From Parcubacteria group bacterium Gr01-1014_8 (GTDB lineage: Bacteria > Patescibacteriota > Minisyncoccia > Phycocordibacterales > UBA2100): a stretch of DNA of 64,000 nt. The translations under genes and the position numbers were made by a program. The stretch is from contig VMGC01000005.1 of the NCBI GenBank assembly GCA_007376385.1, forward strand, positions 1 through 64,000. The letters are read 5' to 3'. The first letter of the stretch is position 1. Each line of letters starts with the position of its first letter. Under the pieces are notes generated by a model, which saw only the letters and a program-made list of their open reading frames with translations, was not told the origin of the DNA and ran no database searches. Positions 16,123 to 56,258 of the stretch are shown one piece after another.

Positions 16123-16201
16123 CGCTGATTCGTTTGCCTGCTCTGTCATCCTCATGGCCATGCCCATAGCATATCAAAATAGTGACGGGGGCGAGAGGGT
16201 C

Positions 16202-16229
16202 TTGACATATAAATCGGCCCTGATACACT
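16202..16229 (+). promoter_or_regulatory. Candidate rpoB promoter TTGACA-N16-TACACT
   Basis: Hexamers at 16202..16207 and 16224..16229. Confidence 0.35.
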
Positions 16230-26828: not shown

Positions 26829-27572
26829 TTATATAAGTTCTAGCTGCGCTAGAGAGAGAAGAAGAATAATCAACGTCAAGGCATACGTGATGGAGTAATT
26901 ACGAAGTGCAATCCAGTTTTCTGCCGGAGATACTACAAGTTTTTGTTTAAGTAGGTTGTCGGGCATGGGGCCACCGTAATGCGTTGGGTCGGCAATTCTC
27001 TCGAATAGGAATGTCGGGATGTACTCTCCAGAAAAATTAAACATTATGGTCTTTTCTTCATGCATTTTTTGGTGACTCAGCTCTATGTCCCCTGCTCCTG
27101 GTTCACCTCCAAGGAAGCAACCTTCGTCAATGGGAATTTCAATAGAATTAAAAAAGACGACGCTAAACTTTGAATAATATTCTCTGAATTCTTGCTCGGA
27201 GTTTCTGTCGTTCTGTAAGGGGATAATTCGTACTGAGAGGACAATTTTTCTTCCGGCAATGAAACCACCTCTTGCTGTAGGTCCAATTCGAAGTGGAATA
27301 CCGGGTTGTCGATTACCAGTAATGCTCACAACCCAACTTTGTTGAACGCGAGGCACAAAAAAACCGGTCATCGCGAGCAATGCCCAAAAAATCAGCAGAA
27401 AAACTATATAAATGCCCGTATCGATTCCAAGGGAATCTTGAGAATTAGCATAAATGAGCAACCCAGCTGATGCTGCAAAGATGAATTCGAAACCAGCAGT
27501 ACGCGACAAGTCATATCTGAAAAAAGTCTTTATCTGACGTGATAGGTTATCTTTGATTTCCCAACCGGTCAT
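26829..27572 (-). CDS. Hypothetical membrane protein (247 aa)
   Basis: Two or more predicted TM segments; no recognisable domain. Confidence 0.4.
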   Translation of the reverse strand: MTGWEIKDNLSRQIKTFFRYDLSRTAGFEFIFAASAGLLIYANSQDSLGIDTGIYIVFLLIFWALLAMTGFFVPRVQQSWVVSITGNRQPGIPLRIGPTARGGFIAGRKIVLSVRIIPLQNDRNSEQEFREYYSKFSVVFFNSIEIPIDEGCFLGGEPGAGDIELSHQKMHEEKTIMFNFSGEYIPTFLFERIADPTHYGGPMPDNLLKQKLVVSPAENWIALRNYSITYALTLIILLLSLAQLELI

Positions 27573-27628: not shown

Positions 27629-28564
27629 CTAATTAACCACATTCGCGGGAGACCCTTCCAAAAAACTCATCATATTGCCGACAAACATTCCTTGTTTCTT
27701 TTTTCTGGCCTCTTTCGAAATATATGCCATCGGCGGGTAGATGATGCAGTTTTCGTACGGGGAAAGTTTTGCTAGGTTTTCTTTTGTCATTTCATCGGAA
27801 TGATCAAGAATAAATGTAACATCATCCTGTTTTAACCTCTCCGTCAGCGCATCAATATCAATGAGTTCCATTGGTGCTGTATTAACCACAACTGATTCCT
27901 TTTTAAGTTTTTGTAGCCTTTCTGTGCCAAAGAAACCTTCTGTCTCTGGGGTCTGCGCCAGGTTGATAGATAGGAAGTCGGCTTCGTTGATGAGCGTGTC
28001 AATGTCTTGATACTCAAAGGCCGTATCTTTCTTTTCCCGTGACCAATATTTGACCTTTGCCCCAAAGCCGCTTGCTAGCTCTGCAACTCTGCTTCCGATG
28101 CTTCCGAAACCTATGACGCCGAAAATCGAGCCTCTAATCTCTCGTGCGGCTAGACCTGCTTCAGAATAGTTGCCGGTTCTTCCTCGTTGTTTGCCTGTTT
28201 CGAGATTGCGGATATGTTCCAGAATAACGGCGATTATAAACTCTGCCACAGATTCCGTGCTATATCCGGCAAGATTGGAAACAGGAATGCCTCTCTCTTT
28301 CGCATGTGCGATGTCAACTTTTCCGTATGCTGTCGCAAGTACGCCGATGTATTTCAAGTTTGGCGCGGCGTCCATCATTTCTTTTGTTATTGAAATGCCA
28401 AAATTCACGAGAAGACAATCGGCATCAGAGAGTTCTTTTAAGATGTCAGAACTGTCTTTGGGGAGGCTGATTTTTCGTTCAGTAAGCTCATCGAGCTGTT
28501 TCCAATACAAAGAGTCCAATGCGGATTCAGAGATATTGACGAGAAGCGTTTTCTGAAACTTCAT
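27629..28564 (-). CDS. D-isomer-specific 2-hydroxyacid dehydrogenase family (NAD-binding GVIGFGSIGSRVA)
   Basis: Rossmann GxGxxG and the catalytic-domain layout of D-2-hydroxyacid dehydrogenases. Confidence 0.75.
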   Translation of the reverse strand: MKFQKTLLVNISESALDSLYWKQLDELTERKISLPKDSSDILKELSDADCLLVNFGISITKEMMDAAPNLKYIGVLATAYGKVDIAHAKERGIPVSNLAGYSTESVAEFIIAVILEHIRNLETGKQRGRTGNYSEAGLAAREIRGSIFGVIGFGSIGSRVAELASGFGAKVKYWSREKKDTAFEYQDIDTLINEADFLSINLAQTPETEGFFGTERLQKLKKESVVVNTAPMELIDIDALTERLKQDDVTFILDHSDEMTKENLAKLSPYENCIIYPPMAYISKEARKKKQGMFVGNMMSFLEGSPANVVN

Positions 28565-28672: not shown

Positions 28673-29665
28673 ATGGTTGAACAGTCGCGGCCAACGGGTG
28701 AGATCATAAAGGATCCCGGTAACGTCATTGAGGCGCCGGACAAAGTCATTCCGAACATAACCAATAGGTTGATTCTCGAGGAGCACGACGATCCGGTCAC
28801 GGAGCAGCAAATTGGTGACGATGTGCTCTCGTTCTCTGCGGAGAGCATAAGTCCTCTGTATTCAGATGCCCCGCGTTCGTCGATGGTTGTCATGGTGGAT
28901 CGGGGGCAGAGAAAAATCCATGAACATATGAATCGTCATGGAACGTCTCTTTATTTCGCGGACATGCATATGAGTCCGGAAACTCGCGCATTTGAACAGC
29001 GGCGAATGTTCTTGAAGATATTTTTAGGCGGAGGCAGCTCGATTGCCGCGATGAGTTCATCGTCGTTGACAAAAACTGCTCGTTATGCGGCAGGCGTGGC
29101 GATGTTCTGGTTGATGGGTCCGCGGGTGGCGCGTAATGTGATGGCATATACGTCCAGCGGCAAGCATAATGATTTTAGGACTCTGCGCGGGAAAGCGTGG
29201 AAGGCGGTCAGTAATACGCAAGAGGCACTAAATCCGGATGAGCACCGATTTACCGTGGGGCTTAGAAATTCTCTGATTTCGTATAAACATCGGGCCGCAA
29301 CTCGGCTTGCATTGGAGCGTGCCGGGAGTGACACGGCTTCGCGAAACGCTGTGCTTTCGGTTGGAGATGGCCACAATCAGATAAGCGGCATGCTGCACAC
29401 GAAAACAGACGAAGAGCTACTCGAGACGATTCGAAGGGAGTTGCAGCGACTGGTTAAGGTTGATCCGAATGACGATGAAATGTGGGCCAGTATCTCAAAT
29501 ATCCCTGAAGTCTGGTTTACCGACGGTAAAGACCCAAGAGCCCAAGCGACAATCCCGTTGATGGGAGAGCTGAAAGTGGCCGGCGGCAAAGATTTTCTTT
29601 GTTCGAAAATTCATGAGGATTCGCGGCTCTCGGCGCTGGTTCGAGAGGTCAGAAACAAGCAATAA
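28673..29665 (+). CDS. Hypothetical protein (330 aa)
   Basis: ORF only. Confidence 0.4.
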   Translation: MVEQSRPTGEIIKDPGNVIEAPDKVIPNITNRLILEEHDDPVTEQQIGDDVLSFSAESISPLYSDAPRSSMVVMVDRGQRKIHEHMNRHGTSLYFADMHMSPETRAFEQRRMFLKIFLGGGSSIAAMSSSSLTKTARYAAGVAMFWLMGPRVARNVMAYTSSGKHNDFRTLRGKAWKAVSNTQEALNPDEHRFTVGLRNSLISYKHRAATRLALERAGSDTASRNAVLSVGDGHNQISGMLHTKTDEELLETIRRELQRLVKVDPNDDEMWASISNIPEVWFTDGKDPRAQATIPLMGELKVAGGKDFLCSKIHEDSRLSALVREVRNKQ

Positions 29666-30084: not shown

Positions 30085-30098
30085 CACGGGGAGTCAAC
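30085..30098 (-). promoter_or_regulatory. GTTGACTCCCCGTG motif copy 3, overlapping the stop codon of the 306-aa gene, with no obvious downstream gene
   Basis: Plus strand CACGGGGAGTCAAC. Confidence 0.3.
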
Positions 30099-31014
30099 TC
30101 TCGCGGGTTTCAGTTCGTGCCGTATCAAACTTGAGGAATTCTTGCTGGGCGCGGATTAAGAGTCTGCCCTCGCGGTTTATTAGATCATGTTGGCGGTATT
30201 CTGGATATAGAGCTGGGCACCCGCCATGTCGGGAGTGCCTGTTGCTTTTTGTCGGCGGGATTTCACGTGTGACAAAATAGATGAACATCGGATCTATGGG
30301 TCGTTCGGTGTCGTGCGGACGAATAATTGTGCGACCGAGGTACGTTTCAGGTGGTCGAGTTCGTACATCGGCCCAAAAACTGAATGGCGCTAGAGCAAAT
30401 AGTTCGAGGTAGGTGTATCCATGAGGATTAACTTTGTAAACCTTATCATCACCGATTGTCACCTCATCATTTGGACATACTTGTAAGAGTCGCTCGAAGA
30501 GTGCCATATATTCTTGTGGCGTATGCGCAGAGCGCGACACCAGCGATACTACGTCGAGAATTGTCTGGACATTGTCGAGCGTTACGCCCCGTGGCGAACG
30601 CATGTCCAAAGAAGTATTCGCGTATTTGTCGGGGTCATACGGAAGGTCTGACATAACATCTCCCAGAACCTTTTTTAACAGAGTGGAAGAACCAAGCACG
30701 AACCGCTGTAAGTTCGGCGCTACATTAAGGGTTAAATCGAGTACGGGAAGGTAACTTAGGCGCGCACGTGGAAATTGTTCCTGAAAGGCCCGCAATTGCG
30801 GGAAAAGTTGTTCCGTCGTCGTAGGGCCGAAGCTCGGGACAGCTTGTGCTATTGTGAAATTGTGCGACTCTCTGTCTCGTTCATCAAATGCGTGCCTCCA
30901 ATCGTTTTCATTAAGCTTTTCTGACCGTGCGTACACAGTGTCGGTAAAACTTGCCAATCCGCCACCTTCATCGCTCATGACGTGAGCCCAATCTTCGGCA
31001 GATTTTCTTATCAC
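30094..31014 (-). CDS. Hypothetical protein (306 aa; GTG start at 31014 or ATG at 30978)
   Basis: ORF only. Confidence 0.4.
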   Translation of the reverse strand: MIRKSAEDWAHVMSDEGGGLASFTDTVYARSEKLNENDWRHAFDERDRESHNFTIAQAVPSFGPTTTEQLFPQLRAFQEQFPRARLSYLPVLDLTLNVAPNLQRFVLGSSTLLKKVLGDVMSDLPYDPDKYANTSLDMRSPRGVTLDNVQTILDVVSLVSRSAHTPQEYMALFERLLQVCPNDEVTIGDDKVYKVNPHGYTYLELFALAPFSFWADVRTRPPETYLGRTIIRPHDTERPIDPMFIYFVTREIPPTKSNRHSRHGGCPALYPEYRQHDLINREGRLLIRAQQEFLKFDTARTETRES

Positions 31015-32416: not shown

Positions 32417-32563
32417 TTATTTGCGAGCGTTGCGAGTAAAATGCAAAAGAGCACTTTTGCATTCCCGAGCCGAGGAGCAAACACAGGTTCAATACCTCGG
32501 AGCAAGCTCCGAGGAACCTTTATTTGTGAAGCGGGCAAATTCTCCCTGGACTTGAGACAGGGA
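32417..32563 (+). ncRNA. Structured RNA element, copy 1: TTATTTGCGAGCGTTGCGAGTAAAATG + hairpin 1 (AATGCAAAAG/TTTTGCATT) + CCGAGCCGAGGAGC + hairpin 2 (CTCGGAG-caag-CTCCGAG) + hairpin 3 (CCCTG…CAGGG). Directly upstream of the Ehr-like operon.
   Basis: Paralogous to 47594..47759 with compensatory substitutions in all three stems. Strand assignment is tentative. Confidence 0.5.
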
Positions 32564-32594
32564 CAGGAGTAGAGTTGTCCGCATTTAGACTCGT

Positions 32595-33110
32595 ATGTTA
32601 CGCCTTTTGACGCAGATGATCCGGACTGGCAAGAAGACCGAACCGGCTCCAATACTGGAGCCAATTGACGAGGTCGGGGAGAACCTCCGCAATGCCATTC
32701 ATACGCTCTACGGAGGGCGTATGCTCCGTATCCGCCACGTGGATGCCGGCTCGACAAACGGAGAGGAATTCGAGATGACGGCGCTTGGCAACGCCTACTA
32801 CGACATGGAGCGATTCGGACTTTCATTTGTTGCCTCTCCCCGGCACGCTGACATTTTGACCGTATCCGGGCCAGTAACGCGCAATATGGAACACGCGCTC
32901 AAGACTGCGTATGAAATGACGCCGAAGCCTCGCATTGTCATCGCAGTCGGAGACGGCGCAATTGACGGAGGAATCTGGAAAGATTCGTACGCAATTGTGG
33001 GAGGGGTGAAGGATGTTATTCCGGTTGACGCCGAAATTCCCGGAGATCCACCGTCTCCGCTTGATCTGCTAAAAGGATTTCTAAATGTGTTGCAAGGCGC
33101 AAGAAAATAG
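32595..33110 (+). CDS. NuoB/HycG-family subunit (complex I 20-kDa / hydrogenase small-subunit fold) lacking all four [4Fe-4S] cluster cysteines
   Basis: Aligns well to NuoB (ERFGLSFVASPRHADILTVSGPVTRNMEHAL…IVIAVGDGAIDGG…IPVDAEIPGDPP). CCxxE becomes ST/EE, GxCA becomes GDGA, PGCPP becomes PGDPP. Confidence 0.75.
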   Translation: MLRLLTQMIRTGKKTEPAPILEPIDEVGENLRNAIHTLYGGRMLRIRHVDAGSTNGEEFEMTALGNAYYDMERFGLSFVASPRHADILTVSGPVTRNMEHALKTAYEMTPKPRIVIAVGDGAIDGGIWKDSYAIVGGVKDVIPVDAEIPGDPPSPLDLLKGFLNVLQGARK

Positions 33111-33115
33111 TTTTT

Positions 33116-35080
33116 ATGGTTGCGTCTTTTTTTGTTGCCTCGCTGATTTTGCCGCTTGTAGCAGGAGTTGCTGCGCTTCTTCTCCTGCGTACAAAAGCGG
33201 GTCACATGCTCACGCAATTGGTTTTTGCTCTCGGCGGCCTAAGCGGTGTCGTTGGCGCAACGTTGTTCTATGCGAGCGATGGAGCGAGCACCGTCGTTTT
33301 TCATACGGCACTCTTTAGTCTTGTTGTCGGGACGCTTTCAGTATTCTTTTTGGGAATTATATCCGTCGGTGTTCTTCTCACATCGTTGTATGCGCTTGAG
33401 GGTCTGCGCAGATACAAAAGCGTCTATTCACTCCCGTGGCTTGCCGTTGCGTCTGCTTTTTTCATATTCGGCATGCAGGCAACGGTCATGGCCTCCTCTG
33501 TTGCGGGTTTTCTCGTTGCGTGGGAGTTGATGTCCGTCGCCGCATATTTCCTCGTTATAGCGGATGGCACTGAAGAATCACTGCATGCAGGCTTCTCGTT
33601 TTTTATCATGGCGCACATCGGGTTCGCGAGTCTTGTCGCAGGATTTCTACTTCTTTCTGCGGGCAATCCCTTTGCAGAGTGGCCGGAAGTAGCGCTCGCC
33701 GCAAAAACCATGACGCCGGCGACGCTCTCCGTCGCGTTCTCGCTTTTATTCATCGGCTTCGGCTCAAAAGCGGGTCTTGCCCCGCTCCATCAGTGGCTGC
33801 CCATGGCGCATCCGCAAGCGCCGAGCCACGCTTCGGCGTTGCTATCCGGCGTCATGTTGAAAGTCGCGCTTTTTGGGTTCATTCAATCGCTGTTCTTGTT
33901 TCCATCGGTTCCCCTATCATGGGGCGTTGTTGTCCTTGTGGTAGGACTCGTGTCGGCTTTCTTCGGCGTTCTGCACGCAGTCGTCGAGAGCGACATGAAA
34001 CGAGTACTCGCATGGAGCAGCATCGAGAACATGGGCCTTATTTTCTCTGGCGTAGGCGCAGCAATGATATTGCGCACGTTGCCGTACGAGGCAGGACCCG
34101 TACTCGCATCATCTATCGCCATTTTCGTTGCGCTCCATATCATCAATCACTTTCTCTTCAAGAGCGGGCTCTTCATGGCTGCGGGCGTTATCGTATCGGA
34201 AGTGCATTCTCGTGACATGGATATCATGGGGGGTTTAGCGCAAAAGTGGCCCATCTTCTCCGGCGTTTTTCTAGCTCTCGCGCTCGCAGCGGCAGCGTTG
34301 CCTCCGTTCGGTACATTCTTTGGCGAGTGGATGTATCTGCAATCTCTCGCACTTGCGCTTGTCGGTCTGCCTTTGCCGCTTTCCGTCGTTGCGGGACTCG
34401 TCCTCGCAGCCGTCGCATTGGTGAGCGGCCTTGCTATCGTTGCGTTCGTAAAAATGTTCTCAAGCGTCTTTTTAGGGAGAGCTCGAAATGAACATGCGGA
34501 ACATGTGGGGATGATGCCAATGTCTCTTATGTGGCCGCCAATGGTGTGCGCGATTCTTTCGATTGTTGCCGGGGTGCTTGCATTTCCTTTTTTTTCATCG
34601 CATTTTATGGATGGCGCGAGCATCATGCAAGATGTCGTTATCGTACAAGGCGCCTCCATGAACGCTTGGATCCTGTGGGCGCTTATCGCGGGTCTTGCGA
34701 TCATAGCGCTTCTTCTCGCGCGTTTTCTTCGCGTGCCGGTTCGCATTACGGATACGTGGGATTGCGGGCAGCCGCTCACGTCGCGAATGGAATATACGGC
34801 AACTGGATTCTCGGCACCGTTCCGCTTTTTCTTCCGTGCGTTCTTAGTATCGCGAAAAGAAATGATCGTTACGCCTATCTCTTCAGAGAATCCGTGGATA
34901 GCGAACCGGCGTCTCGAGTGGAGCATTACCTCAACATGGGAGCGGCTCTTTTATCGCCCCGTCGGGCAGGCATTGCTTCGTTTTGCTGAATACGCGCGCA
35001 AGTTCCAAAGCGGCGTCGTCCAGATGTACCTTTTGTTTGTTGTTATCGCTCTTGTCGGAGCATTCATTTTTGCGCTATGA
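33116..35080 (+). CDS. NuoL/HyfB/MnhA-like antiporter-type membrane subunit (654 aa)
   Basis: Multi-TM proton-pumping-subunit signature (…WLPMAHPQAPSHASALLSGVMLK…). Confidence 0.8.
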   Translation: MVASFFVASLILPLVAGVAALLLLRTKAGHMLTQLVFALGGLSGVVGATLFYASDGASTVVFHTALFSLVVGTLSVFFLGIISVGVLLTSLYALEGLRRYKSVYSLPWLAVASAFFIFGMQATVMASSVAGFLVAWELMSVAAYFLVIADGTEESLHAGFSFFIMAHIGFASLVAGFLLLSAGNPFAEWPEVALAAKTMTPATLSVAFSLLFIGFGSKAGLAPLHQWLPMAHPQAPSHASALLSGVMLKVALFGFIQSLFLFPSVPLSWGVVVLVVGLVSAFFGVLHAVVESDMKRVLAWSSIENMGLIFSGVGAAMILRTLPYEAGPVLASSIAIFVALHIINHFLFKSGLFMAAGVIVSEVHSRDMDIMGGLAQKWPIFSGVFLALALAAAALPPFGTFFGEWMYLQSLALALVGLPLPLSVVAGLVLAAVALVSGLAIVAFVKMFSSVFLGRARNEHAEHVGMMPMSLMWPPMVCAILSIVAGVLAFPFFSSHFMDGASIMQDVVIVQGASMNAWILWALIAGLAIIALLLARFLRVPVRITDTWDCGQPLTSRMEYTATGFSAPFRFFFRAFLVSRKEMIVTPISSENPWIANRRLEWSITSTWERLFYRPVGQALLRFAEYARKFQSGVVQMYLLFVVIALVGAFIFAL

Positions 35081-35180
35081 CCCCATGAGAGAAACGATCT
35101 AAATTCTTATGAATCACACCAATTGTAACGAGATGCAGTGCTTCGCTCAGGATCATATCTATTTTTCTCACGGGGTATGA
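35078..35180. repeat. IR element copy E: TGACCCCATGAGAGAAA …69 nt… TTTCTCACGGGGTATGA. Spans the stop codon of the upstream gene and the ATG of the downstream gene.
   Basis: Same arm consensus and ~70-nt spacing as copies A–C. Confidence 0.5.
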
Positions 35181-36124
35181 CCGTCACGATACTCATTTTG
35201 CAGTTCTTCTTAGTGCTCGCGGCAGCGCCCGCGACGGTGGGGATCGTGCGTAAAATAAAAGCGCGCTTTCAGAACAGGCGCGGCGCACGCATCACGCTTC
35301 CATACTGGTCGCTCCTTTCGTTGCTTCGAAAAGAAATGACCATCACGCGGCACAGTTCGTGGGTGTTTCGCATCGTTCCGTTCGTGGTCTTTGGAAGCGC
35401 ACTCGCGCTAGCAGCGCTTATTCCTTCTTTTGCTGTAGGAATTCTGGCCGCGAGCATGAGCAACATTTTTCTTGTCGGCGCCGTCGCCGCGCTCGGCTCC
35501 GCGTTCCTTGTTTTTGGCGGCATGGATACCGGAAGCACGTTCGGCAACATGGGCTCCAGCCGCGAGATGACGATAGCCTCATTGATAGAGCCTGCCGTAT
35601 ACGTATCGCTCGCTTCTCTTGCAACGCTCTCCGGTTCGTGGAGTTTGGATGGCATCGCACTATTTTTTGCCGCAAGTAAATGGGTGGAGATAATACTTCC
35701 GGCCTCACTTACGTTAGTGGCCCTCGTCTTTGTGCTGCTCGCAGAAAATGCGCGCTATCCGGTGGATAATCCTGCAACGCACCTTGAGCTCACAATGGTG
35801 CATGAGGCGATGGTCTTAGAATATTCCGGCCCATACCTCGCAATGCTCGAATACGCGTCGTGGATAAAATTGACTGCGATGCTGATGCTCGTGATGAATC
35901 TCGTAGCGCCGTGGGGTATTCTGACTTCTCCATTTGCTCTTGGGGCCACTCTCATCGCGCTCGTTGCATTTGCCATTAAGCTCGGCGTCGGTGCATTCGT
36001 CATTGCGTTCATCGAATCAACGATCGTAAAAATGCGCTTCTATCGAATGCAGGAATACATGTCTCTTGCGCTCATCGTTGCGCTCGGCGGTCTTGCTATT
36101 TCGCTTGTCTCAATTGCCGTATGA
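35177..36124 (+). CDS. NuoH/HycD-like membrane subunit
   Basis: 8-TM NuoH-like pattern. Start at MTVTILIL (the ORF begins at 35138). Confidence 0.7.
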   Translation: MTVTILILQFFLVLAAAPATVGIVRKIKARFQNRRGARITLPYWSLLSLLRKEMTITRHSSWVFRIVPFVVFGSALALAALIPSFAVGILAASMSNIFLVGAVAALGSAFLVFGGMDTGSTFGNMGSSREMTIASLIEPAVYVSLASLATLSGSWSLDGIALFFAASKWVEIILPASLTLVALVFVLLAENARYPVDNPATHLELTMVHEAMVLEYSGPYLAMLEYASWIKLTAMLMLVMNLVAPWGILTSPFALGATLIALVAFAIKLGVGAFVIAFIESTIVKMRFYRMQEYMSLALIVALGGLAISLVSIAV

Positions 36125-36774
36125 GTGCGCAGCTTACATTCGACCTCCCGACATTATTTGCATGCGGCATGCTGCTTCTATCGTTGATAATGGTAAGCCG
36201 CATGCGTCTTTCGTCGCTTGTCGGTATTTTCCGTTACCAGAGCGCGCTTCTTGCCATCTATGCGGTCATCCTTGCGATCTCTCATGATGAACCAGAATTG
36301 CTCGCGGTCGCCCTTTTTATTGCACTTGTGAAAGTGGTCCTCATACCAGCGTTTCTCATTCGCGTCGCAAAGCAAAATGGCGTGTCAGAGAGGCTTGATT
36401 CGTATTTGCGTCCGACGACGTCCACATCAGTAGGTTTGGTTGCCATCCTTCTCGCGTTTGCCGGAGCAGAGGCGACATTTGCTACGAGCGCGGGGCTCAT
36501 CATAGTTGCGTGCGTTTTTGCTCTCATTCTGACGGGGCTTATTCTTCTCATTACGCGCAAAGACATGTTCGGGCAGGGAATCGGATTTCTCGTGATGGAG
36601 AACGGCATCTATGCATTCGGGCTCGCTCTTGCTGGCGGAATGCCCATCTTTGTCGAGCTTGCAGTTCTGTTTAACCTTCTTGCGCTCACCGTTCTGATGG
36701 TTCTGTTGTTCCGAGTCGCGCAAAAGGTCCACTCTTCTGTTTCAACCGAGCATTTTAAGCGACTCATCGATTGA
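36121..36774 (+). CDS. HyfE-like small membrane subunit (NuoK-like C-terminal part)
   Basis: Hydrophobic 217 aa with GFLVMENGIYAFGLAL motif. Confidence 0.6.
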   Translation: MSAQLTFDLPTLFACGMLLLSLIMVSRMRLSSLVGIFRYQSALLAIYAVILAISHDEPELLAVALFIALVKVVLIPAFLIRVAKQNGVSERLDSYLRPTTSTSVGLVAILLAFAGAEATFATSAGLIIVACVFALILTGLILLITRKDMFGQGIGFLVMENGIYAFGLALAGGMPIFVELAVLFNLLALTVLMVLLFRVAQKVHSSVSTEHFKRLID

Positions 36775-36775
36775 T

Positions 36776-38227
36776 ATGACTGTATCTCTGCTCCTCATGG
36801 TTATTCTTGTCGCTGCTGCGATGCCGTATCTCTGTGCCACAACGAAACAGGTGCGTTCGCTCGCGATGATAGGAAGTACGAGTATTTTCCTGCTTTCTCT
36901 CTTTGTCGGGATTCCGGCGCTGTTTGCTCCAGCCGCTGTTACCGGCGCGGGTTTGTGGTACATCGATGCTCTGGGCGGGTTCTTTGTTCTCTTGATCGGA
37001 TTCGTTCAGTGGACAGGGACGCTCGTAAGCATGACGTACATGAAGGAAGAAGAGGCGCACGGGACGGTAACCGCGGCTAAGGTCAAACGATACTTCGTAC
37101 TCTTGCATCTTTTCGTCCTCGCGATGATGCTTGCTGTCGTCTCGAATAACACAGGCATCGTGTGGGTTGCGCTCGAGGGCACGACGCTGGTGACGACACT
37201 CTTGGTCGGTTTTTACGAACGAAAAGAATCTCTTGAGGCTGCCTGGAAATATCTCATTCTGTGCTCATCGGGCATTGCGTTCGGATTCTTGGGAATTCTT
37301 GTCATGTTCTATGCGGCTTCGACGACGGGGGCGGAAGGCGTTATCGGCATGACGTGGTCAGGGTCGGCACTTCTTGAAGCGGCGCTTCCCGTAAGCGTCG
37401 TAAAGATAGCGTTTGTGCTCTTGCTGATAGGGTTTGGCACCAAGGTTGGTCTTGTCCCGATGCACGCCTGGCTCCCGGACGCCCATTCAAGCGCGCCATC
37501 GCCAATTTCTGGCATGCTCTCGGGGGTGCTTCTCAACGCCGCGTTATTGCCGATACTTCGTTTCAAAAATATTGTTGACGGCGTTGCCGCGCCTGGTTGG
37601 ACCGATCAGCTTCTCATCGTATTCGGGGTTCTCTCTATCGCGCTTCCTGCAGCGTTCGTACTTGTTCAGCGCGATTACAAAAGGTTGCTCGCATATTCGA
37701 GCATTGAACACATGGGGCTCATTACGCTGTCGGCAGGACTCGGCGCGATTGGTTCCGTCGCCGCGACAATTCACATTGCGGGTCACGCTCTCGCGAAATC
37801 TGCGCTCTTCTTTGCGGCGGGAAACATCCTCTTGAAATATCACAGCACTAAATTCGAGAATGTCTCGGGGGTTACACGCATATTGCCTTACACAGGAGGG
37901 CTCTTTCTCGTTGCATTTTTGGCGCTTCTCGGCGTTCCGCCTTCACCCTTGTTTGCGAGCGAATACTTTATGGCGGCTGCTGCGATAGGCACGCATCCCT
38001 ACGCCACCGGCGCCGTCTTTCTCGCCCTCACTATCGTATTTGCCGGATTTGTGCGGCTCTTGATGCCGATGTTGTTTGGGGAGAGTCCTGACAGAGGTGG
38101 GCGGGAGAGATGGAACATATCGCACACCGCTATCACGTTGAATATCGTTTTACTTATCGGACTTGGTATTGCTCTCTGGATTGCTCCTGGAGAGGCGATC
38201 ATCCAACGCATTGCAGAAATTATTTAG
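36776..38227 (+). CDS. NuoN/NuoM/HyfF-like antiporter-type membrane subunit
   Basis: …MHAWLPDAHSSAPSPISGMLSGVLLNAA… signature. Confidence 0.75.
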   Translation: MTVSLLLMVILVAAAMPYLCATTKQVRSLAMIGSTSIFLLSLFVGIPALFAPAAVTGAGLWYIDALGGFFVLLIGFVQWTGTLVSMTYMKEEEAHGTVTAAKVKRYFVLLHLFVLAMMLAVVSNNTGIVWVALEGTTLVTTLLVGFYERKESLEAAWKYLILCSSGIAFGFLGILVMFYAASTTGAEGVIGMTWSGSALLEAALPVSVVKIAFVLLLIGFGTKVGLVPMHAWLPDAHSSAPSPISGMLSGVLLNAALLPILRFKNIVDGVAAPGWTDQLLIVFGVLSIALPAAFVLVQRDYKRLLAYSSIEHMGLITLSAGLGAIGSVAATIHIAGHALAKSALFFAAGNILLKYHSTKFENVSGVTRILPYTGGLFLVAFLALLGVPPSPLFASEYFMAAAAIGTHPYATGAVFLALTIVFAGFVRLLMPMLFGESPDRGGRERWNISHTAITLNIVLLIGLGIALWIAPGEAIIQRIAEII

Positions 38228-38231
38228 AAAT

Positions 38232-39752
38232 ATGACCATTCAATCACTCACACAAAGGATCGGGATCGCGGGAAAAGACTTCGTACTAGTTCCTCGTGAT
38301 GACCTGCACCGGCATGCAGAAGTTTGCGTTGAGGCAGGCGCTCCTCTCATGTTCATGTACGCAACAGAAGAGGCGAACGGATTTGTGGTACATGTAGTAT
38401 TTTCCGCAGAAGACGGCTTTCTGACATTGAAGGCGGAGCTGCCGCGCGATGATCCGACGTATCCGTCGCTCACTCGCAGTATCATGGCAGCGCATTGGTA
38501 TGAGCGATTGATGCATGACCAGTTCGGCATAGTTGCAGAGGGGCACCCCGACTGGCGACGACTCATACACCACGAGAATATCCCTGAAGGCACGCATCCG
38601 CTCCGTAAAGATTTTGCGTGGAATACGAAGCTTCCGCATGCGAATGTTCCGTACCCGATGCACGCAGTCACTGGAAAGGGAATTTATGAAGTTCCGGTCG
38701 GGCCGATACACGCAGGAATAATTGAGCCGGGCCACTTTCGTTTCAACGTTCGCGGAGAGAGAATTCTGACGCTCGAAGGAAAACTGTTCTTCAAGCATAA
38801 GGGCGTCGAGAAATTGGTTGAGGGAAAGACACCGGAGGAGGCTTTTCCCTTCATCGAAAGAATTTCTGGCGACATGGTCGCCGGGCATGCACTCGCGTTT
38901 GCGGAAGCTGTTGAAGCTGCATCTGGAGTCGCCATATCAGCGCGTGCGAAACATCTGCGTGTCCTGTGGAGCGAATTGGAGCGAGCAACGGCGCATGTTT
39001 TTGATATGGGGAATATGGGAGGCAACGGCACAGGATTTACATTCATGGCGGCACAAGGCTTTCGCATGGTCGAAGATATGCGTCGTTTGTATCAATCGCT
39101 CGTAGGGCACCGATTCTTGCGAGGCGCTATTGTGCTTGGCGGCGCGCATGATATTTCTGAGGGTGATGTTGAGAAGATCCGTGCCGTGATAGATGATATT
39201 GAGCGAGACATGAAAAAAGTTCTCGCAATTGCGTATGGAAGCGACGGGCTTATGGAGCGGTTTGAAACGACGGGAATTCTTTCACTTGAGGCCGCGAAAG
39301 CATACGGGGCGCGGGGAACGCCAGCGCGGGCGTCAGGGGTTACTCTCGATATACGAACGGGTCATCCCTATGCCGCGTACAAAGAGTTAGGAGTGAGCGT
39401 GGTGACTGAAAAAGGCGGCGATGTCGCGGCACGCTTCAAGGTCCGCGACAGGGAACTCACGGAGTCGTTCCGTCTTATCCGCGAAGTATTGAGAACTCTT
39501 CCGAAAGGCGAGGCGAAAACGAATTCCAATTTCAAACAGGGGAGTGCGCTCGGCGCAGTTGAATCATGGCGCGGCGCTATCATTGACTGGGTGAGGCTTG
39601 ATGCGGAAGGAAGAATTGACCGCTGTGCAATTTCAGACCCATCGTTCTGTAACTGGTCTCTTTTTGGCGAACTTGCGCCTGGCAACATTGTCCCGGACTT
39701 TCCTTTGTGTAATAAGAGTTTGAACCTTTCGTATTCAGGGACGGACCTCTAA
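38232..39752 (+). CDS. Fused NuoC-NuoD / HycE-like large-subunit homologue lacking the NiFe-binding cysteine motifs
   Basis: NuoC-like N-terminal region plus NuoD/HycE-like core. RxCGxC position reads RISGDM; C-terminal DPCxxC reads DPSFCN. Confidence 0.75.
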   Translation: MTIQSLTQRIGIAGKDFVLVPRDDLHRHAEVCVEAGAPLMFMYATEEANGFVVHVVFSAEDGFLTLKAELPRDDPTYPSLTRSIMAAHWYERLMHDQFGIVAEGHPDWRRLIHHENIPEGTHPLRKDFAWNTKLPHANVPYPMHAVTGKGIYEVPVGPIHAGIIEPGHFRFNVRGERILTLEGKLFFKHKGVEKLVEGKTPEEAFPFIERISGDMVAGHALAFAEAVEAASGVAISARAKHLRVLWSELERATAHVFDMGNMGGNGTGFTFMAAQGFRMVEDMRRLYQSLVGHRFLRGAIVLGGAHDISEGDVEKIRAVIDDIERDMKKVLAIAYGSDGLMERFETTGILSLEAAKAYGARGTPARASGVTLDIRTGHPYAAYKELGVSVVTEKGGDVAARFKVRDRELTESFRLIREVLRTLPKGEAKTNSNFKQGSALGAVESWRGAIIDWVRLDAEGRIDRCAISDPSFCNWSLFGELAPGNIVPDFPLCNKSLNLSYSGTDL

Positions 39753-42176: not shown

Positions 42177-43319
42177 TTAACTGCTCATTCCGCCTGCTAT
42201 TCCGTCTAGCTCTTTCTTGAGTGAGATAACGTTCGCTCTAATTTTTCTATATTCTCTCTCCGTGTTGTCGTCCCACGAGCTTTTTGTAGCGGCGTCTTGT
42301 AAATCTAGGAGCGCATTATCCTGCTGCACAATACGGTTTTCCAAATCATTAATTGCAGTCGGCGCTTCGCCTAGTTGCGCCCATTCGCGACTTCTTATTG
42401 TTGGAAAGCGCTCAAGCATCTCCTCGATATCGTCAGCGAGCGCTTTCATGAGGTCTTGAGGAGTTTTTTCCACTCTCCATTCTTTGGGTCTATCCGATTC
42501 AGCCGCTTCCGGTTCCGGTGCAGAAGCCGGTATCGCTATAACTGGTTTTTCGGCCGGCGGAGTTGGCACAATAACTTCGGGTTCGACTGCAGCCACAAAT
42601 TCCCTCGGTTCCTGATGCTCAACTACGGCTAGACCGTCCCAAGCAGGTTCTCCGGGAGTGTCTGCGTCTCCAGCGGCAGTGGGATATTTCAGGGGAGGTT
42701 CTGAATCCGGCTCGTCTGGCGGAGAGGGGGGATTCGGGACATCGGGAGGAGGAGCGGCTTTAAGCTTTGCGGCCTTCACCTCATCATATGCGGTATCGTA
42801 CGCATTTCGCTGACGAATTGTTTCCGGAAGTCGGGATGAAAATCGAAGACGCTGATAGAGTGAGTGGCCCAATTTCGCACCACCCTCTTGCTCATTACCG
42901 ATATGCTGGCAGACCGCACTCAATGTTGGTTCTATGTTATCACCCGCAAGTGCAAAAACTGCGGCGCGTATCGTTTTCTCCGTTACTGAATTAAGTCTCT
43001 CGGTGCCTTCCCTTTTTCGTCGAGAACCTTCCGTCATGGCCATAGCAGCAGATTGTTTTAAGCTTCTAGCTGGCGTATTGATGGCATTCGGGGCTACTTC
43101 CAGAAGAATTCTCATCTCATCAGCTGTCAGACCGTGTCTTGTTTTCAGATCATTCAAAAAAGATTGCTCCGTTTGCCTTTCAGGATTCTTAATAATTTGT
43201 ATTAACTGGCGAACTTCTGCGGGAGAAAGTCTCTGCTCGCCTAGAGCTTGAGAGATCTCCTGTTGCATTTGCTTTTGTTCTGATTGGGGGGCGCTGTCTT
43301 CGTTGCCGAAATCAGTCAT
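42177..43319 (-). CDS. Hypothetical Pro-rich protein (380 aa)
   Basis: ORF only; PPPDVPNPPSPPDEP low-complexity segment. Confidence 0.35.
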   Translation of the reverse strand: MTDFGNEDSAPQSEQKQMQQEISQALGEQRLSPAEVRQLIQIIKNPERQTEQSFLNDLKTRHGLTADEMRILLEVAPNAINTPARSLKQSAAMAMTEGSRRKREGTERLNSVTEKTIRAAVFALAGDNIEPTLSAVCQHIGNEQEGGAKLGHSLYQRLRFSSRLPETIRQRNAYDTAYDEVKAAKLKAAPPPDVPNPPSPPDEPDSEPPLKYPTAAGDADTPGEPAWDGLAVVEHQEPREFVAAVEPEVIVPTPPAEKPVIAIPASAPEPEAAESDRPKEWRVEKTPQDLMKALADDIEEMLERFPTIRSREWAQLGEAPTAINDLENRIVQQDNALLDLQDAATKSSWDDNTEREYRKIRANVISLKKELDGIAGGMSS

Positions 43320-48300: not shown

Positions 48301-48855
48301 CTAGTGCGATTGGTTTTGCGATGCGAATTCCATGAACGTTGCCAGGAATTTCTTCAGCGACGCGATTGTTCTCTCGTCTGTAAGTTCCAAGTTCTCATCG
48401 AATTTCTCCTTTGCTGCCCCAAGATAGAATTCCGGCTGGCCCATGACCTTTGCGTCGAAATAGCCAAGGACGCGGCGTACATCGTATTGCGCAAACGATG
48501 CTCCACGAGGACCAGAGGAAGCACCGAGTATGCCGACGGGTTTTTTATCCCACGACAGCGGGTCGCTCTCCGGCCTCGAACTCCAGTCGAGGAAGTTTTT
48601 TATAGGGCCCGATGGTGTGCGATTAAATTCTGGTACGGCAAGCAAAACTCCATCTGCGGCCTTTATTTTTTCACGAAGCTCAGCAGCCAAAACAGGGAAA
48701 TTCGAGGCTTCAAGGTCTTGATCAAAGACAGGGAGTCCATCAATAGAAACAATTTCAATGTTCACGCCTTCGGGAGCGAGTTTTTTTGCTGCTCGTAGAA
48801 GTGCCGAGTTGTACGAGGCTTTTCGAAGACTGCCGGAAAATGCGACGATGTTCAT
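48301..48855 (-). CDS. NAD(P)H-dependent FMN reductase family oxidoreductase
   Basis: MNIVAFSGSLRKASYNSALL flavodoxin-like N-terminus. Confidence 0.7.
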   Translation of the reverse strand: MNIVAFSGSLRKASYNSALLRAAKKLAPEGVNIEIVSIDGLPVFDQDLEASNFPVLAAELREKIKAADGVLLAVPEFNRTPSGPIKNFLDWSSRPESDPLSWDKKPVGILGASSGPRGASFAQYDVRRVLGYFDAKVMGQPEFYLGAAKEKFDENLELTDERTIASLKKFLATFMEFASQNQSH

Positions 48856-48982
48856 ACTAGTGGGAGTATACACGTATCGTGGGCAGTCTGCTCAATGTTC
48901 CTGAAATATGAACATACCATCTTGTAGCCGGTCGGCACCATTAAGGTATGCTGAGTCTTTCGAAAAGTCGTGATACGAAAGG

Positions 48983-53380: not shown

Positions 53381-53421
53381 AAGAAAATGTTGGCGGCTAA
53401 AAGTTATGTAAGGCACCTAAA

Positions 53422-54447: not shown

Positions 54448-54459
54448 GTTTGGAGGATA

Positions 54460-55023
54460 TCACAATTTCTTCCGCCTGTTTTTACGTTTAGCGGGGGCAA
54501 AATGCTTCCAGTTGTCCTTGGCGAAACGACCAACCTCCTTATAGCTTTGTTCTGGCGGAGAGGTGAGTTCGGAAAAGGTCAGCTGTGCAATGTCCATGCC
54601 GGGGCGCAAGATGATGGGTACCGTGTTTTGATTAGTGAGCTCAAGGGTGATGTTGAGGAAGTGACCGGGATTTATGATGCCGGCGGTGTTGTGAACCATA
54701 AGACCGATGCGTGCAAGAGATGATTTACCGCTGAGTTGGATGAGGTAATCATTCGAACCAAAGAACTCTTTCGACGCTGCGAGCACCGATATTCCGGGGC
54801 GGAGGATGAATTCATGACCGTCTTTCACTTTAACTTCGCGGGTTTTTCCATACATTCGTTTTTGAGGGTCGATGAAGTCCGTCGCGTAGATGTCACTCAG
54901 CTGGAAAGCATTTCCAAGGCGGATGTCGTAGGTTGCTGGCTGAAGTCTTTTGCGGTCAAATGGCTTGATAGTGATCGTGCCTGCTTTCACGGCTTTCTCG
55001 ATATCGGTGTCGGAGAGATACAT
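54460..55023 (-). CDS. dcd: dCTP deaminase
   Basis: MYLSDTDIEK…LQPATYDIRLG. The ORF-track N-terminal 92-aa extension is rejected. Confidence 0.8.
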   Translation of the reverse strand: MYLSDTDIEKAVKAGTITIKPFDRKRLQPATYDIRLGNAFQLSDIYATDFIDPQKRMYGKTREVKVKDGHEFILRPGISVLAASKEFFGSNDYLIQLSGKSSLARIGLMVHNTAGIINPGHFLNITLELTNQNTVPIILRPGMDIAQLTFSELTSPPEQSYKEVGRFAKDNWKHFAPAKRKNRRKKL

Positions 55024-55034
55024 AGTCGGATGGG

Positions 55035-55709: not shown

Positions 55710-55721
55710 TGTCAGAGTATA

Positions 55722-56252: not shown

Positions 56253-56258
56253 GGGTTT

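What the first reader, a model, noticed from the sequence alone, without database searches (positions are those of the whole stretch)
32595..39752. Complex-I / group-4-hydrogenase-like six-gene module with every redox-cofactor ligand mutated (Ehr-like, apparently redox-dead)
Six co-oriented genes. They encode a NuoB/HycG-like small subunit, NuoL/HyfB-like, NuoH/HycD-like, HyfE-like and NuoN/HyfF-like membrane subunits, and a fused NuoC-NuoD/HycE-like large subunit. The NuoB-like protein aligns residue-for-residue with the NuoB core. All four Cys that ligate the N2/proximal [4Fe-4S] cluster are replaced: ACCxxE becomes a Cys-free GSTNGEEFEM, GSCA becomes GDGA, PGCPP becomes PGDPP. The large subunit has RISGDM where hydrogenases have RxCGxC, and DPSFCN where they have DPCxxC, so a NiFe site cannot form. 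No HycF/NuoI ferredoxin subunit is present. Known Ehr complexes lack the NiFe ligands; as far as I know, loss of the small-subunit cluster as well, in a CPR-like genome, is not well described. That would imply a purely ion-translocating or scaffolding role rather than redox chemistry.
Basis: partly seen in the sequence, partly recalled or inferred. Interest (0 to 1): 0.75.

Follow-up and report, generated by a model that had tools for sequence, protein, structure and literature searches.

The report
Cofactor-free complex-I-like membrane complex (Ehr)
A Parcubacteria genome carries a strongly conserved six-gene relative of respiratory complex I and membrane hydrogenases that has lost every cysteine needed to hold its metal centres, so this type of ion-pumping machine seems to work here without electron transfer.

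Summary
Window 32595-39752 (+) encodes six tightly packed genes: NuoB/HycG-like, HyfB/NuoL-like, HycD/NuoH-like, HyfE-like, HyfF/NuoN-like and a fused NuoC-NuoD/HycE-like subunit. Alignment to solved MbhJ, HycG and HycE shows all four [4Fe-4S] cysteines replaced (T54, E57, G121, D151) and all four NiFe cysteines replaced (S212, M215, S500, G503). That motif is the C-terminal 'NLSYSGTD'.

This is an Ehr-type complex. Loss of the NiFe ligands in CPR Ehr was already published (Jaffe 2020). I found no description of the small-subunit cluster loss.

It is not decay. The replacements are near-invariant in 121 Patescibacteria homologues. The two cofactor-less cytoplasmic subunits are the best conserved of the six. 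All canonical ion-path residues and the coupling loop are invariant. The operon always has exactly six genes, with no partner nearby.

Cluster loss recurs in Chloroflexota, methanogens and others, mostly through acidic substitutions.

Most likely this is a redox-independent ion translocator gated at the former active-site pocket. The mechanism is inferred, not shown. Verdict: new variant of a known kind.

The parts
32547..32575 (+). Promoter-like element: TGGACT, 17-nt spacer, TAGAGT. It ends 19 nt before the first start codon.
   Evidence: The pattern TGGACA-N17-TAnAGT is kept at the same place upstream of the small-subunit gene in 7 of 8 CPR operons, although synonymous sites are saturated. 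Function is inferred.
32595..33110 (+). NuoB/HycG/MbhJ-like small subunit, 171 aa, with no cysteine.
   Evidence: PF01058 3.5e-25. phmmer to MbhJ 4.4e-27 and HycG 2.6e-26. AF2 model has pLDDT 80; Foldseek to MbhJ gives TM 0.80.
32754..32765 (+). Codons T54-N55-G56-E57, replacing the C-x-x-C of the proximal [4Fe-4S] motif.
   Evidence: Alignment to MbhJ/HycG GSCNGC. In 121 homologues position 54 is T109/N9/S3 and position 57 is E121/121.
32955..32957 (+). Codon G121, replacing the third cluster cysteine.
   Evidence: GDCA in Cys-containing relatives against GDGA here. G in 117 of 121.
33045..33047 (+). Codon D151, replacing the fourth cluster cysteine (PGCPP becomes PGDPP).
   Evidence: D in 120 of 121.
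33116..35080 (+). HyfB/HycC/NuoL-like antiporter-type subunit, 654 aa.
   Evidence: PF00361 1.3e-46. NCBIfam HyfB 435.8 bits, below the 667 cut-off. HycC 7z0s_C 2.1e-47. E137, K218, H341, H345, K349 and E404 are invariant; K249 is kept in 11 of 13 CPR and all 50 other sequences.
35177..36124 (+). HycD/NuoH-like subunit, 315 aa (the ORF opens at GTG 35138).
   Evidence: PF00146 5.4e-34. HycD 7z0s_D 9.6e-33, aligned from residue 2. E143, E151, E203, D210, E217, E223 and E228 are invariant.
36121..36774 (+). HyfE-like small membrane subunit, 217 aa; its start overlaps the preceding stop (ATGA).
   Evidence: NCBIfam PRK11492 3.7e-12, below cut-off. No Pfam or PDB relative by sequence. K71, E160 and E179 are invariant.
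36776..38227 (+). HyfF/NuoN-like antiporter-type subunit, 483 aa.
   Evidence: PF00361 1.6e-48. NCBIfam HyfF 398 bits, below the 610 cut-off. MbhH 3.1e-35. E134, K223, H333, H337, K341 and E396 are invariant. The TM8 Lys position is Asn family-wide.
38232..39752 (+). Fused NuoC-NuoD/HycE-like large subunit, 506 aa (the ORF opens at TTG 38163).
   Evidence: PF00329 5.6e-19, PF00346 1.7e-38, PF00374 6.3e-07. HycE 7z0s_E 1.8e-60.
38694..38744 (+). Beta1-beta2 loop PVGPIHAGIIEPGHFRF (residues 155-171), the coupling loop of the NuoD/HycE fold.
   Evidence: 14 of its 17 positions are invariant or changed in at most two of the 80 large subunits compared (13 CPR, 67 others). The three exceptions are conservative: P/A at 155, I/V at 159, F/I at 171.
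38865..38876 (+). Codons S212-G213-D214-M215, replacing the NiFe L1 motif C-G-x-C.
   Evidence: Alignment to HycE RVCGIC and MbhL RMCGIC. S-G-D is kept in essentially all 80 Ehr sequences.
39636..39653 (+).
   Evidence: It aligns to HycE AATYAN. C473 is Cys in 16 of 16 cluster-less operons and in 0 of 64 others.
39729..39740 (+). Codons S500-Y501-S502-G503, replacing the true NiFe L2 motif C-x-x-C at the C terminus.
   Evidence: HycE DPCYSCTD against NLSYSGTD. NKSxNxSYSGxDL is conserved in all 80 sequences.

Best explanation
The six genes encode one assembled membrane complex of the Ehr branch (energy-converting-hydrogenase-related) of the complex I / group 4 hydrogenase superfamily. Judged from the sequence, the complex has no redox cofactor: no NiFe site, no proximal [4Fe-4S] cluster and no ferredoxin-like subunit.

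Shown here:
- the subunit identities;
- the loss of all eight cofactor cysteines;
- strong purifying selection, strongest on the two cytoplasmic subunits;
- invariance of the lysine/glutamate/histidine ion-path residues in both antiporter-like subunits, of the acidic chain in the NuoH-like and HyfE-like subunits, and of the beta1-beta2 loop and the polar S-G-D / S-Y-S-G pocket that replace the NiFe site.

Inferred:
- The complex still moves protons or Na+ across the membrane, and electron transfer does not drive or gate that movement. The trigger would be protonation or binding of a small ligand or ion in the former active-site pocket. The signal would then pass through the coupling loop and the NuoH-like acidic channel to the antiporter-like subunits.
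- In a fermentative cell without a respiratory chain, this would most simply act as a gradient-driven cation/proton exchanger or a regulated proton path.
- The carboxylates that replace the cluster ligands (E57 and D151, next to the pre-existing E58, E60 and D120) preserve the negative charge that a (Cys)4[4Fe-4S] centre contributes. They may instead hold a hard cation. Either way the interface between the small and large subunits stays intact.
For: - Identity.
- Cofactor ligands absent, with no alternative conserved Cys set.
- No ferredoxin motif, Fdh, NuoEFG or Hyp genes in the parts of the 64 kb that I scanned: the Pfam scans covered 46 of the roughly 58 larger ORFs, and the ferredoxin motif scan covered every frame.
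- Thirteen CPR operons, including one in a complete 859-kb genome, always have the same six genes with abutting or overlapping junctions. They share no seventh gene.
- Selection: non-synonymous difference pN is 0.17-0.24 for the small and large subunits against L001 and L002, while synonymous sites are saturated (pS 0.77-0.94).
- Amino-acid identity to the window protein: small subunit 58-74%, large subunit 53-74%, against 27-65% for the membrane subunits.
- Replacement residues are fixed: E57 in 121/121, D151 in 120/121, G121 in 117/121, T/N/S at position 54 in 121/121.
- Ion-path residues and the coupling loop are identical in cluster-less and cluster-containing relatives.
- Cluster-containing proteobacterial relatives also lack any input module. 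Their only conserved neighbour is an HTH regulator.
- The cluster has been lost repeatedly while everything else stayed fixed. This suggests the family's core function does not need it.
- In 28 cluster-less sequences, 46% of ex-ligand positions are Asp or Glu against an 11.9% background, and none is Lys or Arg.
Against: - No ion-transport or assembly data exist for any member, so the mechanism is inference from conservation.
- A plain Mrp-like exchanger would not need a peripheral arm, yet that arm is the most conserved part. The driving or gating event is therefore unidentified.
- Sequence cannot exclude a metal bound by carboxylates.
- The AF2 model is of low confidence for residues 56-69, next to the former cluster site, and the tool gave no coordinates to measure geometry.
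- Only 64 kb of this genome was inspected, so a partner encoded elsewhere remains possible.
- The neighbour-joining tree behind the recurrent-loss claim has no support values.
Confidence: 0.5

Rival explanations
1. It is a primary pump driven by non-redox chemistry. The invariant polar pocket that replaced the NiFe site would bind and convert a cytoplasmic substrate, for example CO2/bicarbonate interconversion, a decarboxylation or a hydrolysis. The reaction energy would be coupled to ion translocation, as quinone chemistry is in complex I.
For: The pocket and its loop are conserved at active-site level across phyla: PVGPIHAGIIEPGHFRF, S-G-D and NKSxNxSYSGxDL. The cytoplasmic subunits are the most conserved ones. 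Precedent from general knowledge: cyanobacterial NDH-1 with CupA/B and the DabAB systems couple CO2 hydration to complex-I-type membrane subunits.
Against: No candidate substrate-handling enzyme or accessory gene is linked to the operon in 13 CPR loci, or in about 60 proteobacterial loci. The pocket has no recognisable catalytic metal ligands. No chemistry is known for any Ehr.
Confidence: 0.2
2. It is still a redox enzyme. A metal or cofactor would be bound by the new carboxylate and hydroxyl ligands, or by a partner protein docking in trans, so electron transfer would still drive ion pumping.
For: E57, D151 and T54, together with E58, E60 and D120, form a conserved acidic cluster that could bind Fe, Mn or another metal. 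Only 64 kb of the genome was inspected. The window also encodes soluble flavoenzymes: an FMN reductase at 48301-48873 and an FAD-linked oxidase at 48983-50635.
Against: Every known member of the superfamily passes electrons through the Cys-ligated proximal cluster to the large-subunit site, and both ends of that path are gone. The quinone-binding Tyr position of NuoD is Gly here. No ferredoxin-like subunit or motif is present. Independent lineages use different replacement patterns (TEGD, DxDN, DAAD, SAES), which fits charge retention better than one specific metal site.
Confidence: 0.12
3. It is a non-transporting relic or structural membrane scaffold. The genes would be retained for a role unrelated to ion movement, or would be on the way to being lost.
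For: CPR genomes are reduced and carry many degenerate pathways. Ehr distribution in CPR is patchy (Jaffe 2020, PMC7304191).
Against: All six ORFs are intact and keep their length in 13 operons. Synonymous sites are saturated while pN is only 0.17-0.33 against L001 and L002. More than 120 clusters share 64-89% identity. Every buried charged residue needed for ion transfer is invariant, which a scaffold would not require.
Confidence: 0.05

Closest known systems
Ehr complexes (energy-converting-hydrogenase-related; Coppi / Marreiros nomenclature), for example the hyfBCEFGI-like clusters of Bradyrhizobium, Mesorhizobium, Rhodopseudomonas and Methylococcaceae found here
   Same: The same six subunit families. 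The large subunit has the same Cys-free signature (RxSGD and NxSYSGxDL). The coupling loop and the ion-path residues are the same. No electron-input module is encoded in the operon.
   Different: Those relatives keep all four cysteines of the small-subunit [4Fe-4S] cluster and place the small-subunit gene last. The CPR form has T/E/G/D at those positions and places the gene first. Small-subunit identity is only about 50-55%.
CPR Ehr clade reported by Jaffe et al. 2020 (BMC Biol 18:69, PMC7304191)
   Same: Probably the same clade. That paper reports monophyletic CPR large subunits within Ehr that lack the metal-binding cysteines, and infers that they cannot interact with H2.
   Different: That paper analysed only the L1 and L2 regions of the large subunit (its Fig. 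S6b). It does not report the small-subunit cluster loss, the operon composition or the conservation pattern.
E. coli formate hydrogenlyase / hydrogenase-3 and hydrogenase-4 (Hyc, Hyf; PDB 7Z0S)
   Same: The closest solved structure for four of the six subunits: HycE 1.8e-60, HycC 2.1e-47, HycD 9.6e-33, HycG 2.6e-26. For the small subunit MbhJ scores marginally better (4.4e-27). The gene order of the relatives follows hyfB-C-E-F-G-I.
   Different: There is no NiFe site, no Fe-S cluster, and no HycB/HycF/HyfA/HyfH ferredoxin subunit. There is no formate dehydrogenase and no Hyp maturation genes nearby. NCBIfam Hyf equivalog scores are all below their cut-offs.
Mrp-type cation/proton antiporters
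   Same: Both are complex-I-related membrane machines without redox cofactors, built around two antiporter-like subunits with the same Lys/Glu/His pathway. This is the closest functional analogy.
   Different: Mrp has no NuoH-like subunit and no NuoB/NuoC/NuoD-like cytoplasmic cap. Here that cap is present and is the most conserved part. The small Mrp subunits B, E, F and G are absent.
Respiratory complex I (Nuo) and the membrane-bound hydrogenase/sulfane reductase complexes Mbh and Mbs
   Same: The fold and arrangement of the NuoB, C, D, H, L/M/N-type subunits.
   Different: There is no cluster N2, no NuoI/EFG, no separate NuoA/J/K genes, and no quinone-binding Tyr (a Gly aligns there). No Mbh/Mbs Na+ module is present.

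Membership tests
Group 4 [NiFe] hydrogenase | L1 (RxCGxC) and L2 (DPCxxC) cysteine motifs in the large subunit that bind NiFe | tested here: not met
   RISGDM and NLSYSGTD align to HycE RVCGIC and DPCYSCTD. The same holds in all 13 CPR operons.
Group 4 [NiFe] hydrogenase | Four-Cys proximal [4Fe-4S] cluster in the small subunit | tested here: not met
   T54, E57, G121 and D151 occupy those positions, and the protein has zero Cys.
Group 4 [NiFe] hydrogenase | Ferredoxin-like electron-transfer subunit (HycF/EchF/MbhN type) and Hyp maturation genes | tested here: not met
   None in the operon. No CxxCxxCxxxC motif in any frame of the 64 kb. No Hyp family among the 46 window ORFs scanned against Pfam, out of about 58 larger ORFs. 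The rest of the genome was not seen.
Ehr (energy-converting-hydrogenase-related) complex | Homologues of the group 4 large and small subunits with the NiFe cysteines missing, encoded together with NuoH-like and antiporter-like membrane subunits | tested here: met
   The large subunit shares the RxSGD and NxSYSGxDL signature with about 65 proteobacterial and archaeal Ehr-type loci.
Ehr (energy-converting-hydrogenase-related) complex | Small subunit retaining the [4Fe-4S] ligands. This is typical of the relatives sampled here; I could not check whether the family definition requires it. | tested here: not met
   Nearly all of the proteobacterial loci have GSCNGC / GDCA / PGCPP; the CPR loci do not. 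The defining paper, Marreiros 2013, could not be read.
Respiratory complex I (NADH:quinone oxidoreductase) | Cluster N2 in NuoB; quinone-site Tyr/His in NuoD; NuoI; NuoA/J/K; with or without NuoEFG | tested here: not met
   No N2 ligands. Gly aligns with the E. coli NuoCD Tyr of the DRIEY motif. No NuoI, NuoA, NuoJ, NuoK or NuoEFG genes. All NCBIfam Nuo equivalog scores are far below their cut-offs.
E. coli-type hydrogenase-4 (Hyf) | Equivalog-level similarity to HyfB, C, E, F, G and I, plus HyfA, D and H | tested here: not met
   Best NCBIfam hits are HyfB 435.8 (cut-off 667), HyfF 398 (cut-off 610) and HyfE 46.6 (cut-off 136). No HyfA, HyfD or HyfH genes.
Mrp cation/proton antiporter | Seven-subunit MrpA-G set without a peripheral arm; demonstrated Na+/H+ exchange | tested here: not met
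   Only the MrpA/D-type fold is shared. NuoB, NuoCD and NuoH homologues are present. Transport activity cannot be tested with these tools.
NuoB/PSST/HycG fold (Oxidored_q6) | Sequence and fold similarity over the whole domain | tested here: met
   PF01058 at 88.6 bits against a cut-off of 27. AF2 model pLDDT 80. Foldseek probability 1.00 to MbhJ (TM 0.80, rmsd 3.5 Å), HycG and NDUFS7.

The most novel reading that the evidence does not exclude
This would be a natural complex-I-type energy converter that works with no redox cofactor at all. The N2/proximal cluster has been swapped, repeatedly and in unrelated lineages, for a small group of carboxylates that mimic its negative charge. The coupling loop, the former active-site pocket and the whole ion-transfer chain remain invariant. 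If so, the conformational and electrostatic coupling machinery of complex I can be driven or gated by protonation or ligand binding alone. The cluster in the wider Ehr family would then be an accessory, not the engine.
Probability: 0.3. Interest if true: 0.85.

Novelty: new variant of a known kind. Interest (0 to 1): 0.62.

Why it matters
How chemistry at the cytoplasmic site of complex I is coupled to proton pumping some 200 Å away is still debated. Until now every member of the superfamily with a peripheral arm has been a redox enzyme. A stable, widespread six-subunit version that keeps the arm, the coupling loop and the ion path but has no metal centres offers a minimal natural system. It could separate ion-translocation mechanics from electron transfer.

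It also matters for annotation. These genes are labelled 'NADH ubiquinone oxidoreductase 20 kDa subunit', 'hydrogenase' or 'Ni,Fe-hydrogenase III small subunit' in public records. Such labels would wrongly credit Patescibacteria, some Chloroflexota and some methanogens with H2 metabolism or respiration.

For CPR biology, this may be one of the few dedicated devices for managing membrane ion gradients in cells that lack an electron transport chain.

Tried and rejected
- Pseudogene or decay: rejected. The ORFs are intact, synonymous sites are saturated while non-synonymous change is low, and the replacement residues are fixed.
- Eye-alignment artefact: rejected for the conclusion. phmmer alignments to solved MbhJ, HycG, HycE and MbhL place non-Cys residues at all eight ligand positions.
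- Alternative Cys ligands elsewhere in the small or large subunit: none are conserved as a set. Only large-subunit C473 is invariant.
- Adjacent partner module: none found. Flanks in the window and in 12 other CPR loci are housekeeping genes. The only recurrent context is rpoBC-dnaG-rpoD upstream and a PD-(D/E)XK gene downstream.
- Conserved neighbours of the cluster-containing proteobacterial relatives: only an Xre-type HTH gene emerged, with weaker hits to a methyltransferase-like gene and an unknown gene.
- RNA elements: no tRNA and no Rfam family in the window.
- HyfE-like subunit: no relative among solved structures, by single sequence or by profile.
- Complex prediction of the interface between the small and large subunits is not possible with the tools: monomers only, and no coordinates are returned.
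- Literature: five full-text searches found no description of a cluster-less Ehr small subunit. The founding Ehr paper, Marreiros et al. 2013, is not held, so prior mention there cannot be excluded.

Full report
**1. What is there**

Window 32595-39752 carries six co-oriented ORFs on the + strand.
- Profile searches assign them as follows: NuoB/Oxidored_q6 (3.5e-25); two Proton_antipo_M subunits (1.3e-46 and 1.6e-48); NADHdh/NuoH (5.4e-34); and a fused Complex1_30kDa + Complex1_49kDa protein (5.6e-19 and 1.7e-38, with a weak NiFeSe_Hases hit).
- The fourth gene matches only the NCBIfam HyfE model, at 3.7e-12.
- The best NCBIfam models are HyfB, HyfF, HyfE and NuoB/NuoD. All score well below their curated cut-offs.
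- Among solved structures the closest relatives are the E. coli formate hydrogenlyase subunits: HycE 1.8e-60, HycC 2.1e-47, HycD 9.6e-33, HycG 2.6e-26. P. furiosus MbhJ is also close, at 4.4e-27.
- The junctions are tight: a 5-nt gap, a 96-nt gap, an ATGA overlap, a 1-nt gap and a 4-nt gap.
- Alignments and homologous operons put the real starts of the NuoH-like and large-subunit genes at ATG 35177 and ATG 38232.
- A promoter-like TGGACT-N17-TAGAGT lies at 32547-32575. The same pattern recurs upstream of 7 of 8 related operons.

**2. The cofactor ligands**

Residue-by-residue phmmer alignments to MbhJ and HycG place T54, E57, G121 and D151 at the four cysteines of the proximal [4Fe-4S] cluster. 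The window protein has no cysteine at all.

Against HycE and MbhL, the L1 motif RxCGxC reads RISGDM. The true L2 motif, DPCYSCTD at the C terminus, reads NLSYSGTD.

That detail was wrong, but the conclusion stands.

The Tyr of the complex I quinone site (E. coli NuoCD, motif DRIEY) aligns with a Gly. No ferredoxin-type CxxCxxCxxxC motif occurs in any frame of the 64 kb.

**3. Source and context**

The small subunit is 100% identical to a protein of 'Parcubacteria group bacterium Gr01-1014_8', over the 164-aa annotated protein that covers 96% of the ORF.

The rest of the window is chromosomal housekeeping: dnaE, rpoB, rpoC, dnaG, rpoD, tRNA synthetases, SHMT and thyA. It contains no hydrogenase maturation, formate dehydrogenase, NuoEFG or ferredoxin genes among the ORFs scanned.

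I collected twelve further CPR-type operons. One comes from a complete 859-kb Kaiserbacteria genome, CP066682.1. All have exactly the same six genes in the same order. They share no seventh gene. Several sit in the same rpoC-dnaG-rpoD ... PD-(D/E)XK neighbourhood.

**4. It is maintained, not decaying**
- More than 120 clusters (at 90% identity) of Patescibacteria small subunits share 64-89% identity with the window protein.
- Across 121 sequences the replacements are fixed: T/N/S at 54, E57 in 121/121, G121 in 117/121, D151 in 120/121.
- Synonymous sites between the window and the related operons L001 and L002 are saturated (pS 0.76-0.94). Non-synonymous differences are 0.17-0.24 for the small and large subunits.
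- The two cofactor-less cytoplasmic subunits are the most conserved of the six: 58-74% and 53-74% identity, against 27-65% for the membrane subunits.

**5. The ion-transfer machinery is intact**

I compared 13 CPR sequences with 43-63 non-CPR sequences per subunit.
- The HyfB-like subunit keeps E137, K218, H341, H345, K349 and E404. K249 is kept in 11 of 13 CPR sequences and in all others.
- The HyfF-like subunit keeps E134, K223, H333, H337, K341 and E396. Asn occupies the TM8 lysine position family-wide.
- The NuoH-like subunit keeps a chain of acidic residues: E143, E151, E203, D210, E217, E223 and E228.
- The HyfE-like subunit keeps K71, E160 and E179.
- In the large subunit, 14 of the 17 positions of the beta1-beta2 loop PVGPIHAGIIEPGHFRF are invariant or changed in at most two of the 80 sequences compared. 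The other three vary only conservatively (P/A, I/V, F/I).
- The S-G-D motif and the C-terminal NKSxNxSYSGxDL motif are similarly conserved across those sequences.

**6. Family picture**

A scan of species-representative genomes found at least 597 loci encoding relatives. The 80 best were kept.
- The proteobacterial loci (Bradyrhizobium, Mesorhizobium, Rhizobium, Ensifer, Rhodopseudomonas, Methylococcaceae, Thioalkalivibrio and others) have the order hyfB-C-E-F-G-I.
- Their large subunits are Cys-free, so they are classic Ehr. Their small subunits keep all four cluster cysteines.
- Their only conserved neighbour is an Xre-type HTH gene, so they also lack an input module.
- The CPR form moves the small-subunit gene to the front and has lost the cluster.
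- A second cluster-less type (GSDNxx / GDDA / PGNPP) occurs in Methanoregula, Methanosarcinales and Moduliflexus loci.
- Among the 150 closest representatives at 50% identity, 92 have all four cysteines. Well over a dozen full-length ones have lost three or four, with patterns such as TEGD, NEGD, SEGD, DAAD, DADN, DVDD, SAES and TDES.
- Two of these patterns map to Chloroflexota and Dehalococcoidia.
- I built a neighbour-joining tree with the ligand columns masked. It groups the CPR clade with several other cluster-less lineages. It also shows at least five further cluster-less tips beside Cys-containing sisters. This suggests recurrent loss, although the tree has no support values.
- In a combined set of 150 sequences (the full-length representatives plus selected locus and solved-structure sequences), 28 retain at most one of the four cysteines. 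In those 28, 46% of the former ligand positions are Asp or Glu, against 11.9% background. None is Lys or Arg, and 15 of 20 distinct patterns have at least two acidic residues.

**7. Interpretation**

Everything except the cluster ligands is held constant between cluster-containing and cluster-less relatives. No member of this subfamily encodes an electron input or an electron sink. The conserved function of the subfamily therefore probably does not depend on electron transfer.

The acidic replacements fit retention of the negative charge of a (Cys)4[4Fe-4S] centre, which is -2 or -3 (established chemistry). They could alternatively bind a hard cation.

The extreme conservation of the former active-site pocket and the coupling loop argues that the cytoplasmic cap is functional. 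It is more likely a gate or trigger than a scaffold.

My best reading is a redox-independent proton/cation translocator. It would be gated by protonation or ligand binding in that pocket (confidence about 0.5).

The rivals are:
- a primary pump driven by unknown non-redox chemistry (0.2);
- residual redox function through a carboxylate-bound metal or a partner acting in trans (0.12);
- a non-transporting relic (0.05).

**8. Structure check**

An AF2 model of the small subunit (32-sequence alignment) has mean pLDDT 80 and pTM 0.73. Foldseek matches it to NuoB/PSST, HycG and MbhJ (TM 0.80, rmsd 3.5 Å to 6cfw_J). Residues 56-69, directly after the first two ex-ligand positions, fall below pLDDT 50.

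**9. Novelty**

Jaffe et al. 2020 already reported a monophyletic CPR clade within Ehr whose large subunits lack the metal-binding cysteines. They inferred no interaction with H2. Their supplement shows only the L1 and L2 regions of the large subunit.

Matheus Carnevali et al. 2019 and others describe Ehr as presumed redox-coupled ion translocators that need a partner oxidoreductase.

Five full-text searches found no report that the small-subunit cluster is also lost, that the replacements are conserved and acidic, or that the loss recurs across phyla. The founding Ehr paper could not be read.

I therefore rate this as a new variant of a known kind, of real interest to complex I and hydrogenase specialists. 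The mechanism remains inferred.

Noticed in passing
L038, L059, L076 (small subunit at 10001-10510, 1617-2006 and 10001-10510): A second type of cluster-less small subunit (GSDN[SA]x / GDDAC / PGNPP). It occurs in Moduliflexus, Methanosarcinales and Methanoregula loci and is paired with Cys-free large subunits (EAVSGDETVAN, NLSYAGxDL). Further patterns (DAAD, SAES) map to Chloroflexota and Dehalococcoidia proteins.
   Followed up: partly
L007 (CAWAMP010000016.1), 9995-17192: A 70% GC contig of 403 kb, labelled Acidobacteriota, carries the CPR-type operon: small subunit first, T/E/G/D at the ligand positions. The NuoN-like and large-subunit genes lie in one 1016-aa ORF. This suggests lateral transfer and a possible gene fusion.
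   Followed up: partly
L004 12634-14241; L005 4224-5618; L006 12404-14032: In the three Moranbacteria loci the ORF that covers the NuoH-like gene is 465-543 aa long. In L004 it also spans the HyfE-like region. This may be a fusion of the two genes, or just an in-frame read-through of my stop-to-stop ORF extraction.
   Followed up: no
window 39648-39650 (large-subunit C473): A single cysteine in the 'SFCNW' stretch is present in 16 of 16 operons with a cluster-less small subunit and in 0 of 64 operons with a Cys-containing one. The otherwise similar Thermoproteota locus L077 has Val there. The reason is unknown.
   Followed up: partly
window 32760-32801 (small-subunit residues 56-69): The stretch right after the first two ex-ligand positions is the only internal segment of the AF2 model below pLDDT 50. 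It may need its partner subunits, or a bound ion, to become ordered.
   Followed up: no
window 3929-4582 (-): An ORF with a weak IS200-like Y1 transposase domain (PF01797, 7.1e-07) sits between a class II tRNA synthetase gene and dnaE.
   Followed up: no
window 48301-50635 (-) and 27629-28564 (-): Soluble redox enzymes in an otherwise minimal genome: an NADPH-dependent FMN reductase, an FAD-linked oxidase (D-lactate/glycolate-oxidase type) and a D-2-hydroxyacid dehydrogenase. None is linked to the operon in other loci.
   Followed up: no
window 52106-57699: A compact thymidylate/folate cluster: SHMT, thymidylate synthase, a dCTP-deaminase-like gene, a RibD_C/DHFR-like gene, a Vut_1 vitamin-uptake transporter and a second, canonical DHFR.
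   Followed up: no
window 45-1565, 1646-2437, 26829-27572, 28673-29665, 30094-31014, 42177-43319: Six sizeable ORFs (247-506 aa) have no Pfam match. The one at 42177-43319 is rich in Pro, Glu and Ala and is probably low-complexity.
   Followed up: no
L009 3044-3421 and equivalents in 19 proteobacterial loci: A roughly 125-aa Xre-type HTH gene directly precedes the cluster-containing Ehr operons of Alpha- and Gammaproteobacteria. It is the only conserved neighbour and a likely dedicated regulator. The CPR operons lack it.
   Followed up: partly
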